From a virus (taxonomy: Duplodnaviria; Heunggongvirae; Uroviricota; Caudoviricetes), in the IMG/VR virus record IMGVR_UViG_2737471861_000024: a stretch of 11,634 nt of DNA; one strand, given 5' to 3'. The notes below the pieces were generated by a model. The model saw nothing but the letters and a program-made list of their open reading frames with translations. It made no database searches and was not told the origin of the DNA. Position numbers and translations under genes: made by a program. Positions 6,481 through 10,010 of the stretch are shown here, piece after piece (the first letter of the stretch is position 1; the number at the start of each line of letters is the position of its first letter).

Positions 6481-6495
6481 TTACCGTTGAGGTAA
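6481..6495. promoter_or_regulatory. Operator-like palindrome TTACC-GTTGA-GGTAA overlapping the -10 / transcription start of the leftward early promoter
   Basis: Perfect 5-bp inverted half-sites separated by 5 bp; same motif recurs at 6543-6557, 7255-7269, 9586-9600 and 9648-9662. Confidence 0.55.
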
Positions 6496-6523
6496 TAATT
6501 ATGCGTATCTGGTTTGGTGTCAA
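6495..6523 (-). promoter_or_regulatory. Putative leftward early promoter (PL-like): -35 TTGACA (6523-6518), 17-bp spacer, -10 AATTAT (6500-6495) on minus strand
   Basis: Perfect consensus -35 hexamer with 17-bp spacing to an A2/T6-containing -10; flanked by operator palindromes; positioned in front of the leftward operon. Confidence 0.5.
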
Positions 6524-6542
6524 TAGATATGAGTTAAAAAAA

Positions 6543-6557
6543 TTACCCGTTAGGTAA
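6543..6557. promoter_or_regulatory. Operator-like palindrome TTACC-CGTTA-GGTAA, 19 bp upstream of the PL-like -35
   Basis: Perfect TTACC-N5-GGTAA inverted repeat. Confidence 0.55.
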
Positions 6558-6568
6558 TCGAACAGGCA

Positions 6569-6614: not shown

Positions 6615-7199
6615 TTATTGTTTGTTTTTTTCGTTCTGGTTGATGACAAATTCAATGTAACTTTCGATCTTTGCTTTCTCGGTTTCGGGTAACAATGCGT
6701 AGCGCGAGCGATCATAGTTGATGGTCGCAGGGTCGTGCGGGTGAATCAGTAATTCATAGCCGTGACGCCCGAATGCGGATGCAACATTCTCCAGGGTGGA
6801 AATGGAAACGCTGACCTCATTGTTTAACAGGCGGCTGATTGTCACCTGGGCGACGCCGGATGCGCGGTGTAGTTTTCCCTGCGTTGAAAGGTCGCGGCTT
6901 TCGCTCATCCAGCGTTCCAGGTTGTGAGCCGCCAACTGACCAATGTCGCTTGGGCCGACAGGATGAAAACCTTCCTGAGAAAGCGAGCGATCGATATCAA
7001 GCCAGTTACGGGGTTTATTGGCGGCAGCTTCAATTTTTCGCGCAACCTGGTCGCCGATAACTTTCTTGCCAAGAGCCCAGCGGTTTACCAGATTTGCCTG
7101 AGTTCCAAGTTTTTCTGCCATCCGCGTCTGAACACCATTGAATTCACGGTCGATCAAGTCGTTGAGATTTTGCCTGCGGACGTCCTGGATACTTTTCAT
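6615..7199 (-). CDS. CI-like prophage repressor with two tandem XRE-type helix-turn-helix domains; no peptidase-S24 (LexA-like) autocleavage domain recognisable
   Basis: 194-aa ORF divergent from the Cro-like gene; HTH 1 ~aa 25-70 (TRMAEKLGTQANLVNRWALGKKVIGDQVARKIEAAANKPRNWLD), HTH 2 ~aa 115-150 (ASGVAQVTISRLLNNEVSVSISTLENVASAFG); no Ala-Gly/Ser-Lys cleavage module seen. Confidence 0.7.
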   Translation of the reverse strand: MKSIQDVRRQNLNDLIDREFNGVQTRMAEKLGTQANLVNRWALGKKVIGDQVARKIEAAANKPRNWLDIDRSLSQEGFHPVGPSDIGQLAAHNLERWMSESRDLSTQGKLHRASGVAQVTISRLLNNEVSVSISTLENVASAFGRHGYELLIHPHDPATINYDRSRYALLPETEKAKIESYIEFVINQNEKNKQ

Positions 7200-7254: not shown

Positions 7255-7317
7255 TTACCCAACAGGTAAATGCACCCCATAGGTAACTATCCTTGATTTT
7301 TGTTACCTTATGGGTGA
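7255..7317. promoter_or_regulatory. Divergent immunity-region operator cluster: O1 TTACC-CAACA-GGTAA (7255-7269, perfect), O2 GCACC-CCATA-GGTAA (7272-7286, degenerate), O3 TTACC-TTATG-GGTGA (7303-7317, degenerate)
   Basis: Same TTACC-N5-GGTAA family as at PL; sites lie in the 154-bp gap between the divergent repressor and Cro-like genes; an alternative reading is a larger inverted repeat CCATAGGTAAC / GTTACCTTATGG flanking TTGATT. Confidence 0.5.
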
Positions 7318-7328
7318 ATATTTATTAT
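7300..7328 (+). promoter_or_regulatory. Putative rightward early promoter (PR-like): -35 TTGTTA (7300-7305), 17-bp spacer, -10 TATTAT (7323-7328)
   Basis: Hexamers read by eye; O3 overlaps the -35/spacer; alternative -35 TTGATT at 7293-7298 with -10 GAATAT. Confidence 0.4.
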
Positions 7329-7353: not shown

Positions 7354-7584
7354 ATGAGCGATAACGGACATTTCGATTTCAAAAAGCACTGGCTTGCACT
7401 TACTCCGGATGAGCGTGAAGCCTTCGCACAGGAAGCCGGAACGACGAGTCACTATATCCAGACTCACTTAACAGGTAAGCGCAAAATGCCAGGTAAGGTA
7501 TTGATGAATGGGCTTTTTAAAGCCTGTAAAACAAGACAATGGCTGCGCTCAAAAGCAGAACTGGCATACTTCTTCTACTCATGA
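7354..7584 (+). CDS. Cro-like small HTH DNA-binding protein (Cro/YdaS-type)
   Basis: 76-aa ORF divergent from repressor; HTH-like segment AGTTSHYIQTHLTGKRKMP; position and size as for Cro in lambdoid immunity regions. Confidence 0.65.
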   Translation: MSDNGHFDFKKHWLALTPDEREAFAQEAGTTSHYIQTHLTGKRKMPGKVLMNGLFKACKTRQWLRSKAELAYFFYS

Positions 7585-7606
7585 TATCCAGCCACAACCC
7601 TCTGTA

Positions 7607-7628
7607 GACCGCCATCCGGCGGTCTTTT
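7607..7628 (+). terminator. Rho-independent terminator after the Cro-like gene (tR1-like): stem GACCGCC/GGCGGTC, loop ATCC, then TTTT
   Basis: Perfect 7-bp GC-rich hairpin at 7607-7624 followed by T-run 7625-7628, 23 bp after the Cro-like stop. Confidence 0.6.
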
Positions 7629-7734
7629 CATATCTATTCGCACCTAAAAGGTAACAAAAAACCAAATCTGGTTGATCTTTTTTTTGTGTCAGCACAAAAT
7701 AACCGTAATCCCAATACTAATAACAGGGCTTACC

Positions 7735-7935
7735 ATGGAAATCATTACACGTATTGATGCCGCAAAGCGCGGACTTAAACGCTACTACACCGGAAAACCA
7801 TGTAAGCATGGACATGACAGTGAACGCTGGGTTTACAACGGACACTGTGTTGAGTGCACCATGGAATCAAACCGTCGCATCAGGGCAGAGATTAAGCAGA
7901 TCATGATTAATTCCTCCCCACAACATTCAAACTGA
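7735..7935 (+). CDS. Small hypothetical protein (66 aa) with Cys/His cluster (C-x-H-x-H ... C-x2-C), possible zinc-binding; occupies the cII position between cro-like and O-like genes
   Basis: Start placed at ATG 7735 (MEIITRIDAAKRGLKRYYTGKPCKHGHDSERWVYNGHCVEC...) rather than ORF-track start 7672; AGGG Shine-Dalgarno-like sequence upstream. Confidence 0.55.
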   Translation: MEIITRIDAAKRGLKRYYTGKPCKHGHDSERWVYNGHCVECTMESNRRIRAEIKQIMINSSPQHSN

Positions 7936-7950
7936 TAGCGGAGATTAATC

Positions 7951-8766
7951 ATGAGCAGACATGCAACAGATTGGGCCTGGGAGACAGATCCAGGTAGCTC
8001 GTCATTAAAGCTCATACTGCTCTCGATGGCTGACAGAGCCGATGAATATAACCTCTGCTACCCCAGCATAGAACGCCTCGTTAAAGACACTTGCCTGAAT
8101 AAAAAAACCGTACAGGCCGGGCTTATATCGCTCATGAAAATGGGGCTTATTTCAGATACCGGAGAGAGAAAGGGAGCGACGAAAAGAGTGCGGGTTTTCT
8201 CTCTTAATATAACCAAAAACGGGAACATTAAAGGCAACCGGGAGGGGGGCAATGAACCCGAAAACGGTAATGTTACCGAAAACGGGAATATACCCAAAAA
8301 CGGGATGTTGAATGATCCCAAAAACGGGATGTTGAATGATCCCAAAAACGGGATCCAGAACCAGTCATATAACCAGTCATTTAACCAAGAGAGGGAGAGC
8401 AGGACAAAAACCGGGGATTCTGTGCCTCATGACCACGGCGCAAACAACGCCGTGATGAATAACTTTGTTCCTCCTGGTGGGCCAGGGCAATTAGGCAAAT
8501 TTGTCATGCATGAACAATGGCAGCCATCAGATGACTTTCTTCGGAAAAGCTCATTGCAGGGGATCTACCTGGACAGTCTGCCAACGGCACAGGAACTTGC
8601 AGAATTCAGAATTTACTGGATGGCTGAGGGTAAGGCATACCATCAGGCACAGTGGGAGCAGAAGCTGGCAAGGCGGCTGCAGATTAGCAGACAGAAGCAA
8701 TCAACATTACCTGATAACAACGTTCCGCACTGGAACAGCCCTGAAGCATGGGAGGATTTCTTGTGA
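7951..8766 (+). CDS. Replication initiator, lambda O-like (N-terminal winged-helix DNA-binding domain, internal iteron-encoded linker)
   Basis: 271-aa ORF; N-terminal LILLSMADRADEYNLCYPSIERLVKDTCLNKKTVQAGLISLMKMGLIS resembles the phage replisome-organiser N-terminal domain; GGAG Shine-Dalgarno before ATG 7951; immediately upstream of the P-like gene; contains direct DNA repeats as in the lambda O/ori arrangement. Confidence 0.8.
   Translation: MSRHATDWAWETDPGSSSLKLILLSMADRADEYNLCYPSIERLVKDTCLNKKTVQAGLISLMKMGLISDTGERKGATKRVRVFSLNITKNGNIKGNREGGNEPENGNVTENGNIPKNGMLNDPKNGMLNDPKNGIQNQSYNQSFNQERESRTKTGDSVPHDHGANNAVMNNFVPPGGPGQLGKFVMHEQWQPSDDFLRKSSLQGIYLDSLPTAQELAEFRIYWMAEGKAYHQAQWEQKLARRLQISRQKQSTLPDNNVPHWNSPEAWEDFL
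8213..8356. repeat. Candidate replication origin iterons inside the O-like gene: about six copies of CC(A/G)AAAACGG(G/T)A spaced at 18-24 bp, including a perfect tandem 24-bp duplication (8293-8316 and 8317-8340) and a partial third copy
   Basis: Direct repeats read in sequence at about 8213, 8258, 8276, 8294, 8318, 8342; the tandem 24-mer cccaaaaacgggatgttgaatgat encodes repeated PKNGMLND peptide units. Confidence 0.7.
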
Positions 8767-9548
8767 ACAACGTTTTTACCGCGATACAAAACCGTGACGG
8801 AGAAGCCCTTTCTCGCATGTCAGGTTATGAGCATCAGTACACCAACAATGACAACGTGGTGAACATGTCAGCAGAGAGGCTTGTTGATGCCCTTTTCAAA
8901 CAGCTGAAACAACTGTTTCCGGCGGCAGTGGTAACCAACCTGAAGACGCCAGAGCAGGAAGTTGCTGCAAAACAGCAGTGGATTGCTGCGTTTGCCGAAG
9001 GGGGGATCCGAACCCGTGAACAGGTTTCTGCTGGTATGCGCCACGCCCGCGCCAGTGAATCTCCGTTCTGGCCGTCGCCAGGGCAATTCATCAAGTGGTG
9101 TAAAGACAGCAAGATGGTTCTTGGCGTCACCATTGACGATGTGATGGCGGAGTTTCACCGGTACAGCAAGGAAAAAAGTTTATATCCTGGTGGTCCCGAA
9201 AGATTCCCGTGGCGACATCCGGTTATGTACTGGGTCGTATGTGATACCCGCCGTGCAATGTATCAGCGCCAGCTTAGCGAGATTGAGGTTGAGAAACACG
9301 CGCGCAGGCTGCTCGATGATTGGGCGAAAAAGGTGGCTTCCGGACAGCAGATACCCGATCCGGTGATCAGCATACAGGCAAAGCCAGAACCAATGAGTAC
9401 GCCTCCGGACACAGGGAGAGACGTTTACCATCCACCAGGGCGAAGTTTCGGGTGCATGCCTAACGCCGCCACCCTGGGGGGAATAACACCGGCGCAGTGG
9501 CTGATGGAGGAATACAGGCGAGGAAAGGCAGCAGGATTTATCAAGTAA
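8748..9548 (+). CDS. Replication protein P-like (DnaB helicase loader); start may be ATG 8748 or GTG 8763 (GTGA overlap with O-like stop)
   Basis: 266-aa ORF; FPAAVVTNLKTPEQEVAAKQQWIAAFAEGGIRTREQVSAGMRHARASESPFWPSPGQFIKWCKD aligns with recalled lambda P (FPASLANRDQNEVNEIRRQWVLAFRENGITTMEQVNAGMRVARRQNRPFLPSPGQFVAWCRE). Confidence 0.85.
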   Translation: MGGFLVNNVFTAIQNRDGEALSRMSGYEHQYTNNDNVVNMSAERLVDALFKQLKQLFPAAVVTNLKTPEQEVAAKQQWIAAFAEGGIRTREQVSAGMRHARASESPFWPSPGQFIKWCKDSKMVLGVTIDDVMAEFHRYSKEKSLYPGGPERFPWRHPVMYWVVCDTRRAMYQRQLSEIEVEKHARRLLDDWAKKVASGQQIPDPVISIQAKPEPMSTPPDTGRDVYHPPGRSFGCMPNAATLGGITPAQWLMEEYRRGKAAGFIK

Positions 9549-9553
9549 TACCA

Positions 9554-9573
9554 GCGCGATAGCGCATTTTTTT
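9554..9573 (+). terminator. Weak candidate intrinsic terminator after the P-like gene (4-bp GCGC stem, loop GATA, T7 run)
   Basis: gcgc-gata-gcgc followed by attttttt; stem is short so termination efficiency is doubtful. Confidence 0.3.
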
Positions 9574-9585
9574 ACGCCTCAATAG

Positions 9586-9600
9586 TTACCTAATAGGTAA
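9586..9600. promoter_or_regulatory. Operator-like palindrome GTTACC-TAATA-GGTAAC, 19 bp upstream of the -35 of a third promoter
   Basis: Perfect TTACC-N5-GGTAA; spacing to the -35 is identical to the arrangement at the PL-like promoter. Confidence 0.55.
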
Positions 9601-9619
9601 CAAAATATTCTTAGATCTA

Positions 9620-9648
9620 TTGATTTCGTGTCTTATGTGGTTTTTAAT
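9620..9648 (+). promoter_or_regulatory. Putative rightward promoter for the downstream accessory genes: -35 TTGATT (9620-9625), 17-bp spacer, -10 TTTAAT (9643-9648)
   Basis: Hexamers read by eye; flanked by operator palindromes with the same spacing as at PL; shared ATCTATTGA core around the -35 in both promoters. Confidence 0.5.
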
Positions 9649-9662
9649 TACCTTAGAGGTAA
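9648..9662. promoter_or_regulatory. Operator-like palindrome TTACC-TTAGA-GGTAA overlapping the -10/start region and the ribosome-binding site of the gene at 9666
   Basis: Perfect TTACC-N5-GGTAA; its GAGGT doubles as Shine-Dalgarno for ATG 9666. Confidence 0.55.
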
Positions 9663-9665
9663 ATC

Positions 9666-10010
9666 ATGAGAAAACAGATACAGGCTCTTGGTCGACTCAA
9701 AACAGGCCAGATGAACAAAACAGAATCTGCGTATTGCCAGCACCTTGAGCAGCGTAAACGTGCAGGGGAAGTCGCCTGGTATCGGTTCGAGGGTATCAAG
9801 CTGCGGCTGGCTGACAACACGTTTTATACGCCCGATTTCGCTGTGATGCTCGCCACCGGAGAGATGGAACTGCACGAAGTGAAAGGTTTCTGGACCGACG
9901 ACGCCAGGGTGAAAACCAAAGTCGCCGCAGATCAGTATCCGTTCCGAATCATCGGGGTAACGGTTAAACCAAAGAAAGCAGGTGGTGGCTGGAATATCGA
10001 AGAGTTCTGA
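9666..10010 (+). CDS. DUF1064-like small phage protein, possible PD-(D/E)xK-type nuclease (114 aa)
   Basis: Motifs YTPDF and ELHEVKG (D ... E-x-K) in the arrangement recalled for DUF1064 proteins; strong Shine-Dalgarno GAGGTAA upstream. Confidence 0.55.
   Translation: MRKQIQALGRLKTGQMNKTESAYCQHLEQRKRAGEVAWYRFEGIKLRLADNTFYTPDFAVMLATGEMELHEVKGFWTDDARVKTKVAADQYPFRIIGVTVKPKKAGGGWNIEEF

What the first reader, a model, noticed from the sequence alone, without database searches (positions are those of the whole stretch)
9586..9665. A third operator-flanked promoter downstream of the replication genes duplicates the PL architecture
The arrangement operator, 19 bp, -35, 17 bp, -10, operator is identical in spacing at the leftward promoter (6481-6557, minus strand) and at 9586-9662 (plus strand), with a shared ATCTATTGA core around the -35. 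Together with the weak terminator after the P-like gene, this implies the downstream block (DUF1064-like, two hypotheticals, Ea22-like) is under direct repressor control from its own promoter rather than only PR read-through. That is unlike lambda, where the nin region depends on PR plus antitermination.
Basis: partly seen in the sequence, partly recalled or inferred. Interest (0 to 1): 0.65.

Follow-up and report, generated by a model that had tools for sequence, protein, structure and literature searches.

The report
Second repressor-bracketed early promoter in prophage
In this epsilon15/phiV10-type E. coli prophage, the gene block after the replication genes has its own probable promoter bracketed by two repressor-binding sites, laid out exactly like the leftward early promoter; the feature is real and shared by the whole phage genus, but one of the two sites is already annotated in phage epsilon15.

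Summary
The window is a phiV10/epsilon15-type (Uetakevirus) prophage. Its operator is the 15-bp palindrome TTACC-N5-GGTAA. Exact copies lie at 9586-9600 and 9648-9662, and at 6481-6495 and 6543-6557 (PL). Both pairs are 62 bp centre to centre. In both, a -35 hexamer starts 19 bp after the distal operator, and a 17-bp spacer leads to a -10 whose last T is the first base of the proximal operator.

The cassette is a short GCGC hairpin plus T7, operator, CTATTGA -35, A/T-rich -10, operator containing the ribosome-binding site, then ATG. It is present in all 12 related phage genomes examined, in 72 IMG/VR cassettes, and in 529 of 5,426 complete E. coli genomes. In 76 prophages chosen only by repressor identity, the half-sites are essentially invariant while the operator centres vary freely.

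The most likely function is a Rep-repressed promoter for the resolvase-to-late-regulator operon. This is inferred, not shown: the -10 (TTTAAT) lacks the canonical A, and the hairpin stem is only 4 bp.

It is not new in kind. The epsilon15 GenBank record already annotates the upstream site as a repressor-binding site, and N15 CB offers a parallel. Interest is moderate to low.

The parts
9554..9573 (+). Short hairpin GCGC-GATA-GCGC (9554-9565), then A and a run of 7 T (9567-9573), 6 nt after the stop of the P-like gene. Candidate weak intrinsic terminator closing the replication-gene unit.
   Evidence: -5.9 kcal/mol, 4-bp stem. Not called by the scan, which requires at least 5 pairs. The stem and T7 are invariant and the loop is variable in 12/12 related genomes. 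It is annotated as a putative terminator in phiV10.
9586..9600 (.). Promoter-distal operator (op1), TTACCTAATAGGTAA. Centred about 62 bp upstream of the predicted transcription start.
   Evidence: Exact palindrome. Half-sites are exact in 76/76 prophages chosen only by Rep identity, with 27 different central pentamers. The homologous epsilon15 site 35906-35922 is annotated 'protein_bind: repressor'.
9601..9619 (+). A/T-rich 19-bp segment between op1 and the -35 (CAAAATATTCTTAGATCTA). The conserved (T/C)AAAATAT could be an UP-like element. The shared ATCTATTGA core starts at 9615.
   Evidence: The UP-element reading is inference only.
9620..9625 (+). -35 hexamer TTGATT (4/6), within the genus-wide conserved CTATTGA.
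   Evidence: CTATTGA is invariant or nearly so in 71 unique cassettes. It sits at the same register as TTGACA of PL.
9643..9648 (+). Candidate -10 TTTAAT (5/6, 17-bp spacer). It lacks A at position 2, and its last T is the first base of op2.
   Evidence: Not accepted by the scan. Relatives offer TAAATT at an 18-bp spacer (sequences).
9648..9662 (.). Promoter-proximal operator (op2), TTACCTTAGAGGTAA. It covers the predicted start (about 9655) and contains the Shine-Dalgarno GAGG (9656-9659) for the ATG at 9666.
   Evidence: Exact half-sites in 75/76 Rep-selected prophages. Spacing to op1 is 62 bp in 12/12 genomes and 72/72 IMG/VR cassettes.
9666..10010 (+). First gene of the downstream unit: a DUF1064 protein, probably a Holliday-junction resolvase or endonuclease.
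   Evidence: Pfam PF06356. phrog_190 'Holliday junction resolvase', E=1.7e-42. Replaced by a RuvC-like resolvase at the same slot in epsilon15, Tyrion and PAT1.
6481..6557 (-). Leftward early promoter cassette with the same architecture: distal operator 6543-6557, -35 TTGACA 6523-6518, -10 AATTAT 6500-6495, proximal operator 6481-6495.
   Evidence: (10/12 promoter). Conserved in relatives with 62-63 bp spacing.
7255..7317 (.). OR region between rep and the cro-like gene. Three tandem operators at 7255-7269 (exact), 7272-7286 (2 mismatches) and 7303-7317 (1 mismatch). PR is called as TTGTTA-17-TATTAT at 7300-7328.
6615..7199 (-). Repressor gene (194 aa), a homologue of Salmonella phage SPC32H Rep.
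   Evidence: E=3.9e-42 to PDB 5D50 over the full length. 42% identity. The putative recognition segment NLVNRW is invariant across the genus. No S24 peptidase domain.
8748..9548 (+). Lambda-P-like replication gene, the last gene upstream of the cassette.
   Evidence: PF06992, E=1.5e-56.

Best explanation
Region 9554-9665 is a conserved regulatory module of Uetakevirus-type temperate phages. It opens a second rightward early transcription unit.

How it most likely works:
- A short hairpin plus T7 partly terminates transcripts coming through the replication genes.
- A sigma-70-type promoter (TTGATT-17-TTTAAT, start near 9655) then drives the DUF1064 resolvase gene and the genes after it.
- In phiV10 this unit runs about 4 kb without an annotated terminator to a transcriptional-regulator gene that sits just before the packaging genes.
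- Two 15-bp operators for the phage repressor (an SPC32H-Rep homologue) bracket the promoter. op2 covers the -10 end and the start site. op1 lies about six helical turns upstream, on the same DNA face.
- In the lysogen, Rep binds both operators and shuts the promoter, exactly as at PL, which has the same geometry.
- Rep is a tetramer with two DNA-binding units. One tetramer probably clamps both operators and bends the 47-bp promoter segment between them.

What is shown: the sequence architecture, its non-random occurrence, genus-wide conservation, and selection on the half-sites.

What is inferred: Rep binding here, promoter activity, the start site, partial termination, and the single-tetramer clamp.
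For: Architecture and statistics.

Conservation:
- All 12 phage genomes picked by protein homology have both pairs. The third-site spacing is always 62 bp.
- In IMG/VR, 184 of 193 operator-pair hits (exact half-sites 47-48 bp apart) across the loci then held are either PL-type or third-site-type cassettes.
- The inner length is 47 bp in 72/72 third-site cases, although the pattern allowed 48.

Cross-lineage footprint:
- Conserved: hairpin stem, T7, half-sites, CTATTGA, the T/A-rich -10 zone, the ribosome-binding site and the ATG.
- Variable: hairpin loop, operator centres, the -35/-10 spacer and the flanks.

Selection: in 76 prophages chosen only for at least 99% Rep identity, the half-sites are exact in 76/76 (op1) and 75/76 (op2), beside columns with diversity of 0.4-0.5.

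Module behaviour: the genes on both sides are swapped (lambda-P-like or not upstream; DUF1064 or RuvC-like resolvase downstream) while the cassette stays.

Independent annotation: the epsilon15 record annotates the op1 homologue as a repressor-binding site.

Repressor: it is homologous to SPC32H Rep, and the invariant NLVNRW segment matches the invariant half-sites. Rep binds DNA as a tetramer, and its two pairs of dimerization domains, to which the DNA-binding domains attach, point in opposite directions about 100 A apart.

Operon extent: phiV10 has no annotated terminator between 35057 and the genome end, and its last gene matches phrog_536 'transcriptional regulator'.
Against: - The -10 hexamer in this lineage lacks the near-universal A at position 2, so the tool's scan does not call a promoter here. 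The register of the -10 is ambiguous across lineages (17-bp TTTAAT/TTAAAT versus 18-bp TAAATT).
- The hairpin has only 4 base pairs (-5.9 kcal/mol), so read-through from upstream may be substantial and could suffice for expression.
- I could access no transcription-start, footprint or reporter data. The key SPC32H and epsilon15 papers are not held in the library.
- All relatives share the same half-sites, so no operator-repressor covariation test was possible.
Confidence: 0.65

Rival explanations
1. The two operators are real Rep sites, but no active promoter lies between them. They act as a roadblock to residual read-through from upstream, or as anchors for long-range Rep bridging to OR/OL (2.3-3.1 kb away). 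The downstream genes are expressed only by read-through from PR or the candidate promoter after the cro-like gene.
For: - The -10 lacks A at position 2 and the scan finds no promoter.
- The hairpin is weak.
- Single operators without obvious paired partners occur elsewhere in the phage genome, so Rep sites are not always promoter-bracketing.
- Rep belongs to a class of DNA-loop-forming tetramers.
Against: - CTATTGA at the -35 position, and the A/T-rich -10 zone abutting op2, are conserved across deeply diverged lineages while the spacer between them varies.
- The geometry matches base for base that of PL, which is a 10/12 promoter.
- A roadblock or anchor would not need a fixed 47-bp inner segment with a conserved -35, nor a conserved terminator-like hairpin immediately upstream.
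Confidence: 0.2
2. The palindromes at this site are used mainly by another regulator, for example the cro-like protein (7354-7584) during lytic growth, rather than by the lysogenic repressor. The site would then be a lytic-phase timing device, not part of immunity.
For: - In lambda-type switches Cro and CI share operators (established knowledge).
- The cro-like protein matches phrog_35 'transcriptional repressor'.
- Nothing here distinguishes which protein binds.
Against: - The same half-sites occur at OL and OR, where the lysogenic repressor must act.
- The invariant half-sites track an invariant segment in Rep's N-terminal DNA-binding domain.
- The epsilon15 depositors assign the site to the repressor.
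- The two readings are not mutually exclusive.
Confidence: 0.07
3. The similarity to PL is a chance resemblance or an inert relic of a duplication, with no present function.
For: Outside the operators and the 9-mer, the inner 47 bp are only 21/47 identical to PL.
Against: - 8 exact operators against 0.035 expected in phiV10.
- The cassette is conserved across four host genera and present in 529 of 5,426 E. coli genomes.
- The half-sites are invariant beside hypervariable columns.
Confidence: 0.02

Closest known systems
Repressor-binding sites annotated in Salmonella phage epsilon15 (GenBank AY150271.2 / NC_004775.2), with Rep of Salmonella phage SPC32H (PDB 5D50, 5D4Z)
   Same: - Same genus, homologous repressor (42% identity, E=3.9e-42) and same TTACC-N5-GGTAA operator.
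- The epsilon15 site 35906-35922 is the positional homologue of op1 (9586-9600). It lies after the replication gene and before the resolvase gene.
   Different: - The epsilon15 record annotates only the upstream operator at this locus. It annotates neither op2 nor a promoter, and no OR sites.
- phiV10 and the other E. coli records annotate none of these sites.
- The first downstream gene in epsilon15 is a RuvC-like resolvase rather than DUF1064.
- I could not read the primary papers to see whether a promoter here was described.
Phage N15 CB repressor: two OL operators over the repA promoter, distant from the OR switch
   Same: A prophage repressor binds the three-operator switch region and also a pair of operators overlapping a separate promoter for another early function (PMC4488713).
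   Different: - The N15 sites control the replication gene of a linear plasmid prophage.
- Here the extra promoter lies downstream of the replication genes and heads the resolvase-to-regulator block.
- The repressor families differ.
Lambda PL/OL and the nin region
   Same: The gene order is broadly lambdoid: repressor, divergent cro-like gene, O/P-like replication genes, then a block of recombination and accessory genes.
   Different: From established knowledge of lambda:
- Lambda operators are tandem and overlap the promoter hexamers.
- The nin region has no promoter of its own and depends on PR plus N antitermination.
- CI is an S24 self-cleaving protein.

Here the operators flank the promoter 62 bp apart, the downstream block has its own operator-bracketed promoter, and Rep has no S24 domain.
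Repression by paired, helically phased operators bridged by a tetramer (lac O1-O3, gal OE-OI; Rco of plasmid pLS20)
   Same: - Two operators on the same DNA face bracket or flank a promoter.
- The repressor is a tetramer with two DNA-binding units.
- SPC32H Rep shares the loop-associated tetramerization fold of Rco.
   Different: - Bridging of the 62-bp pair by one Rep tetramer is my inference and is not shown.
- The loop would be unusually short.
- The 2023 paper states that Rep's structural mechanism of repression is not well characterized.
Dispersed-operator immunity systems (P1 C1; mycobacteriophage L5 gp71 'stoperators'; coliphage 186 CI at the late-activator promoter pB)
   Same: One immunity repressor acts at several separate transcription units rather than only at one switch. 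Here operators also occur before packaging, structural, tail-fibre and integrase regions.
   Different: These comparisons rest on my own knowledge and were not tested here. The repressors are unrelated, and the L5 sites are asymmetric and act mainly as elongation blocks.

Membership tests
Uetakevirus (epsilon15/SPC32H-type) Rep-operator immunity system | Repressor homologous to SPC32H Rep: N-terminal DNA-binding domain, middle dimerization domain, C-terminal tetramerization domain | tested here: met
   Full-length match to 5D50, E=3.9e-42. 42-78% identity to genus members, with NLVNRW invariant.
Uetakevirus (epsilon15/SPC32H-type) Rep-operator immunity system | 15-bp palindromic operators TTACC-N5-GGTAA at OL and OR | tested here: met
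   The same motif is found at the sites annotated as repressor-binding in epsilon15.
Uetakevirus (epsilon15/SPC32H-type) Rep-operator immunity system | Operator pair after the replication genes, homologous in position to epsilon15 35906-35922 | tested here: met
   same hairpin, operator, promoter, operator and ATG layout.
Uetakevirus (epsilon15/SPC32H-type) Rep-operator immunity system | Rep physically binds these operators and is released by the antirepressor Ant under LexA control | not testable with these tools
   Needs gel shifts, footprints and genetics. The ant region lies outside the window.
Sigma-70 promoter | -35 hexamer with at least 4/6 matches and a 16-18 bp spacer | tested here: met
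   TTGATT (9620-9625) with a 17-bp spacer.
Sigma-70 promoter | -10 hexamer with A at position 2 and T at position 6 | tested here: not met
   TTTAAT has T at position 2, so the scan did not call the site. Relatives have TAAATT at an 18-bp spacing.
Sigma-70 promoter | Mapped transcription start | not testable with these tools
   No transcript data were accessible.
Intrinsic (rho-independent) terminator | G+C-rich stem of at least 5 pairs | tested here: not met
   4-bp GCGC stem, -5.9 kcal/mol.
Intrinsic (rho-independent) terminator | Run of at least 5 T immediately after the stem | tested here: met
   T7 at 9567-9573, one base after the stem. Invariant in 12/12 relatives.
Lambda-type CI/OL-PL control with antitermination-dependent nin region | Tandem adjacent operators overlapping the promoter hexamers, and a CI-type repressor with an S24 self-cleavage domain | tested here: not met
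   Operators flank the promoter 62 bp apart. Pfam finds HTH domains only and no Peptidase_S24.

The most novel reading that the evidence does not exclude
Uetakevirus phages dispense with lambda-style antitermination. They build the early region from serial 'terminator + Rep-controlled promoter' units.

At PL and at this site, a single Rep tetramer clamps two in-phase operators 62 bp apart and wraps the promoter in a roughly half-circle micro-loop.

In addition, the uncontacted centres and outer flanks of the promoter-distal operators are under diversifying selection or local hypermutation. There are 27 centre alleles among 76 prophages with the same repressor, and local diversity is about 0.25 against 0.01-0.02 in the adjacent gene. 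This could individualise repression strength or induction threshold between otherwise near-identical prophages.
Probability: 0.25. Interest if true: 0.65.

Novelty: new member of a known kind. Interest (0 to 1): 0.38.

Why it matters
The result shows how a common group of E. coli, Salmonella and Klebsiella prophages keeps its post-replication genes silent. This group is present in about 10% of complete E. coli genomes. The silenced block ends, in phiV10, with a predicted transcriptional regulator encoded just before the packaging genes.

Silencing appears to work by direct repressor control of a separate promoter, not by dependence on PR plus antitermination.

The fixed 62-bp operator bracket at two promoters gives a concrete, testable model for how the tetrameric SPC32H-type Rep represses. 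A 2023 structural paper says this is not well characterized.

For annotation, the cassette is a reliable landmark that is missing from the phiV10 and E. coli records.

Tried and rejected
1. My first operator pattern used a 7-bp centre (TTACC-N7-GGTAA). It gave only chance-level hits. The correct centre is 5 bp.
2. I tried to read Kropinski 2007 (epsilon15 genome), Kim & Ryu 2013 and Kim et al. 2016 (SPC32H Rep/Ant). None is held in the library. What the primary literature says about a promoter at this site therefore remains unchecked. I relied on the GenBank feature tables and on citing papers.
3. The ZX5 paper mentions 'four predicted promoters' but gives no positions in the text.
4. I wanted heteroimmune relatives with different half-sites to test operator-repressor covariation. 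The Rep-alignment scan of IMG/VR returned only loci with 99% identical Rep, and every genus member examined uses the same half-sites. That test could not be done. I used the returned loci as an unbiased conservation sample instead.
5. Rfam gives nothing in or near 9550-9665, so a known structured-RNA explanation was dropped.
6. A leftward promoter between the operators was considered. The scan finds none.
7. I considered reading within-lineage invariance of the -35 to -10 segment as evidence of selection. I rejected this because baseline diversity in that lineage is low. Only the cross-lineage comparison, and the contrast with the hypervariable columns, are informative.

Full report
WHAT THE WINDOW IS

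The region around the finding is 99.6% identical to Escherichia phage phiV10. phiV10 is an epsilon15-like podovirus of the genus Uetakevirus.

The annotated phiV10 gene order and Pfam/PHROG scans of the window's own ORFs give this layout:
- A leftward early operon that includes the recombination genes.
- A 194-aa helix-turn-helix repressor at 6615-7199 on the minus strand.
- A divergent cro-like gene at 7354-7584.
- A small gene at 7735-7935.
- A DnaT/O-like initiator gene at 7951-8766.
- A lambda-P-like gene at 8748-9548.
- A DUF1064 gene at 9666-10010, then Eae-like and further accessory genes.

The repressor matches Salmonella phage SPC32H Rep over its full length (PDB 5D50, E=3.9e-42; 42% identity). 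It has no S24 self-cleavage domain.

CHECKING THE OBSERVATION

The operator is the 15-bp palindrome TTACC-N5-GGTAA.
- Exact copies lie at 6481, 6543, 7255, 9586 and 9648. Degenerate copies lie at 7272 and 7303.
- There are 13 matches at up to two mismatches against 3.06 expected, and no shuffle reached 13.
- The whole phiV10 genome has 8 exact copies against 0.035 expected.

Both the 6481/6543 pair and the 9586/9648 pair are 62 bp apart. Read in the direction of transcription, both have the same order of elements:
- Operator, 19 bp, then the -35 hexamer: TTGACA at 6523-6518, TTGATT at 9620-9625.
- A 17-bp spacer, then the -10 hexamer: AATTAT at 6500-6495, TTTAAT at 9643-9648.
- The last T of each -10 is the first T of the second operator.

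The shared ATCTATTGA (9615-9623) is in the same register in both. A run that long arose in 0.05% of shuffles.

The hairpin after the P-like gene is GCGC-GATA-GCGC at 9554-9565, followed by A and T7. It is real and weak, at -5.9 kcal/mol. The terminators after rep and after the cro-like gene are about -15 kcal/mol.

COMPARATIVE EVIDENCE

I collected 11 related phage genome records (10 distinct phages) by protein homology to DUF1064 or to the repressor, not by the operator motif. They were phiV10, TL-2011b, Tyrion, BUCT554, Kp4865-1, BUCT711, ST512-KPC3phi13.3, epsilon15, PAT1, SPN1S and SPC32H.
- All of them, and the window, have both operator pairs.
- The third-site pair is always exactly 62 bp apart. 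The PL pair is 62 or 63 bp apart.

Aligned, the third-site cassette reads as follows:
- GCGC-N4-GCGC, one base, T7, about 12 bp, then operator 1.
- (T/C)AAAATAT..., CTATTGAnn, a variable spacer, and an A/T-rich -10 zone.
- Operator 2, which contains GAGG, then 3-5 bp and the ATG.

A pattern scan of IMG/VR for two exact operators 47-48 bp apart gave 120 loci.
- Across those loci and the phage genomes already in hand, 184 of 193 operator pairs were PL-type or third-site-type cassettes.
- There were 69-71 distinct third-site sequences.
- The inner segment was 47 bp in 72 of 72 third-site cases, although 48 was allowed.

Across lineages:
- Conserved: hairpin stem, T-run, half-sites, CTATTGA, -10 zone, ribosome-binding site and start codon.
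- Variable: hairpin loop, operator centres, the -35/-10 spacer and the flanks.

That pattern is the footprint expected of a terminator followed by a rightward promoter with two operators.

The flanking genes are exchanged while the cassette stays.
- Upstream there is a P-like gene, or only a DnaT-like gene, or another replication protein.
- Downstream there is DUF1064 (56 cases), a RuvC-like resolvase (12) or something else (2).
- DUF1064 here matches phrog_190 'Holliday junction resolvase'. The swap is therefore between two families annotated as Holliday-junction resolvases.

AN UNBIASED SELECTION TEST

The IMG/VR pattern scan required exact half-sites, so I also used 80 loci returned solely because they encode a Rep at least 99% identical to the window's.
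- 76 of them contain the cassette.
- Operator 1 has exact half-sites in 76/76, with 27 different central pentamers.
- Operator 2 has exact half-sites in 75/76.
- The ten half-site positions of each operator are thus essentially invariant, right next to columns with diversity of 0.4-0.5.

The cassette occurs in 529 of 5,426 complete E. coli genomes, between 'replication protein P' and, in nearly all records shown, a DUF1064 gene.

HOW IT MOST LIKELY WORKS

I propose a second rightward early unit. This is inference.
- Transcripts through the replication genes are partly stopped at the hairpin and T7.
- A promoter starting near 9655 produces a short-leader mRNA, with GAGG at 9656-9659 and the ATG at 9666.
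- This mRNA covers the resolvase gene and the block after it.
- In phiV10 that block continues about 4 kb with no annotated terminator. It ends at a gene matching phrog_536 'transcriptional regulator', just before the packaging genes.

Rep bound at operator 2 would occlude the -10 end and the start site. Operator 1 lies 62 bp away, which is 5.9 helical turns, so it is on the same face of the DNA.

Published descriptions say the following about SPC32H Rep (PMC9638917; PMC9986798):
- It binds DNA as a tetramer.
- Its DNA-binding domain pairs come from different dimers.
- One tetramer suffices for repression.
- The two pairs of middle domains point in opposite directions about 100 A apart.

Sixty-two base pairs is about 211 A of DNA contour. 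Bent into a half circle, that gives a chord of about 134 A. One tetramer bridging both operators around the promoter is therefore geometrically plausible. This estimate is my own inference. The A/T-rich tracts between the operators would favour such bending.

WEAK POINTS
- The tool's promoter scan calls PL (10/12) and PR (9/12) but not this site, because TTTAAT has T at the near-invariant second position.
- Salmonella, Klebsiella and some Enterobacter relatives have TAAATT at an 18-bp spacing. The window's lineage has TTAATT there.
- The promoter may therefore be weak or activator-dependent in E. coli phages.
- The 4-bp hairpin may let most transcripts through.
- I found no transcript, footprint or reporter data.
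- All genus members share the same half-sites, and Rep's NLVNRW segment is invariant. A covariation test between repressor and operator was therefore impossible.

WHAT IS ALREADY KNOWN
- The epsilon15 GenBank and RefSeq records annotate 'protein_bind: repressor, lysogeny' at 35906-35922. This is the homologue of operator 1, lying between the replication gene and the RuvC-like gene.
- The same records annotate three sites at OL, and single sites before the terminase, gp3 and tail-fibre genes.
- They do not annotate operator 2, a promoter, or the OR sites.
- The phiV10 record annotates only the hairpin.
- The one accessible paper on an E. coli member (ZX5) does not locate operators.
- A functional parallel is N15 CB, which binds two operators over the repA promoter far from the switch (PMC4488713).
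- From my own knowledge, 186 CI at pB, P1 C1 and L5 gp71 are further examples of one repressor acting on several separate units.

I therefore file this as a new member of a known kind.

RIVAL EXPLANATIONS
- Operators without a promoter, acting as a roadblock or looping anchor. This is the main alternative (about 0.2). The conserved -35 and the fixed geometry argue against it.
- Use of the sites mainly by the cro-like protein. This cannot be excluded, but it is not exclusive of Rep control.
- Chance or an inert relic. This is excluded.

SEEN IN PASSING
- Operators are dispersed through phiV10 at 87, 3252, 20497, 20877, 24692 and 26870.
- After the cro-like gene there is a strong terminator (7606-7625), a degenerate operator (7640-7654), a palindrome (7660-7673) and a conserved TTGATC-17-CAAAAT (7672-7700). 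This module is found in 74 distinct relatives. It suggests each early-right unit has its own operator-associated promoter.
- The centres and outer flanks of the promoter-distal operators of both PL and the third site are hypervariable among otherwise near-identical E. coli prophages. Diversity is 0.25 at 9576-9595 against 0.01-0.02 in the P gene. Neutral drift does not explain this.
- Six iteron-like 24-bp repeats lie inside the O-like gene at 8205-8357.

Noticed in passing
window 9576-9600 and 6543-6566; also 9653-9657: The central 4-5 bp and the outer flank of the promoter-distal operators (third site op1 and PL distal) are hypervariable among E. coli prophages with at least 99% identical Rep. 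There are 27 op1 centre alleles in 76 loci. Diversity is about 0.25 per 10-nt bin against 0.01-0.02 in the adjacent P gene. The half-sites, promoter core and coding flanks are almost invariant. The centres of the PL proximal operator and OR1 are not variable. This exceeds what neutral drift would give and is unexplained; diversifying selection or a local mutational hotspot are possibilities.
   Followed up: partly
window 7606-7700: After the cro-like gene there is a strong terminator hairpin (7606-7625, about -15 kcal/mol), a degenerate operator GCACCTAAAAGGTAA (7640-7654), a palindrome AACCAAATCTGGTT (7660-7673) and a conserved TTGATC-17-CAAAAT (7672-7700) followed by an operator-like half-site. 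The module is conserved in 74 distinct relatives. It may be a further operator-associated promoter for the small gene at 7735-7935 and the O/P-like genes.
   Followed up: partly
L133 (phiV10 1-29800): 87, 3252, 20497, 20877, 24692, 26870: Further exact or one-mismatch operators lie at the terminase small-subunit gene start, before phiV10p06, and before the tail-fibre and integrase genes. The epsilon15 record annotates repressor sites at the corresponding places (12-27, 2931-2947, 19895-19911). The Rep regulon therefore seems to reach late and structural units.
   Followed up: partly
L133 (phiV10) 20487-20521: The operator at 20497 is the centre of a 35-bp perfect palindrome, GTGCTTATAT-TTACCTTTGCGGTAA-ATATAAGCAC. 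It lies between a terminator and phiV10p24.
   Followed up: no
window 9666-10010 versus L006 6988-7452 (epsilon15), L009 (Tyrion), L011 (PAT1): The first gene after the cassette is either DUF1064 (phrog_190 'Holliday junction resolvase') or a RuvC-like resolvase. The junction sits exactly at the conserved operator, ribosome-binding site and ATG. This is a non-orthologous replacement at a fixed regulatory slot (56 DUF1064, 12 RuvC-like, 2 other).
   Followed up: yes
window 8205-8382: Six iteron-like 24-bp direct repeats (core CCCAAAAACGGGA; spacings 45, 18, 18, 24, 24) and a 12-bp tandem pair lie inside the O/DnaT-like initiator gene (7951-8766). This is probably the replication origin, as in lambda ori within gene O.
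   Followed up: partly
window 6615-7199 (minus strand): Pfam places the strongest helix-turn-helix match (HTH_3, residues 106-147) in the middle domain. In SPC32H Rep that domain is described as a dimerization domain, while the DNA-binding domain is N-terminal (weak HTH match at residues 21-61).
   Followed up: no
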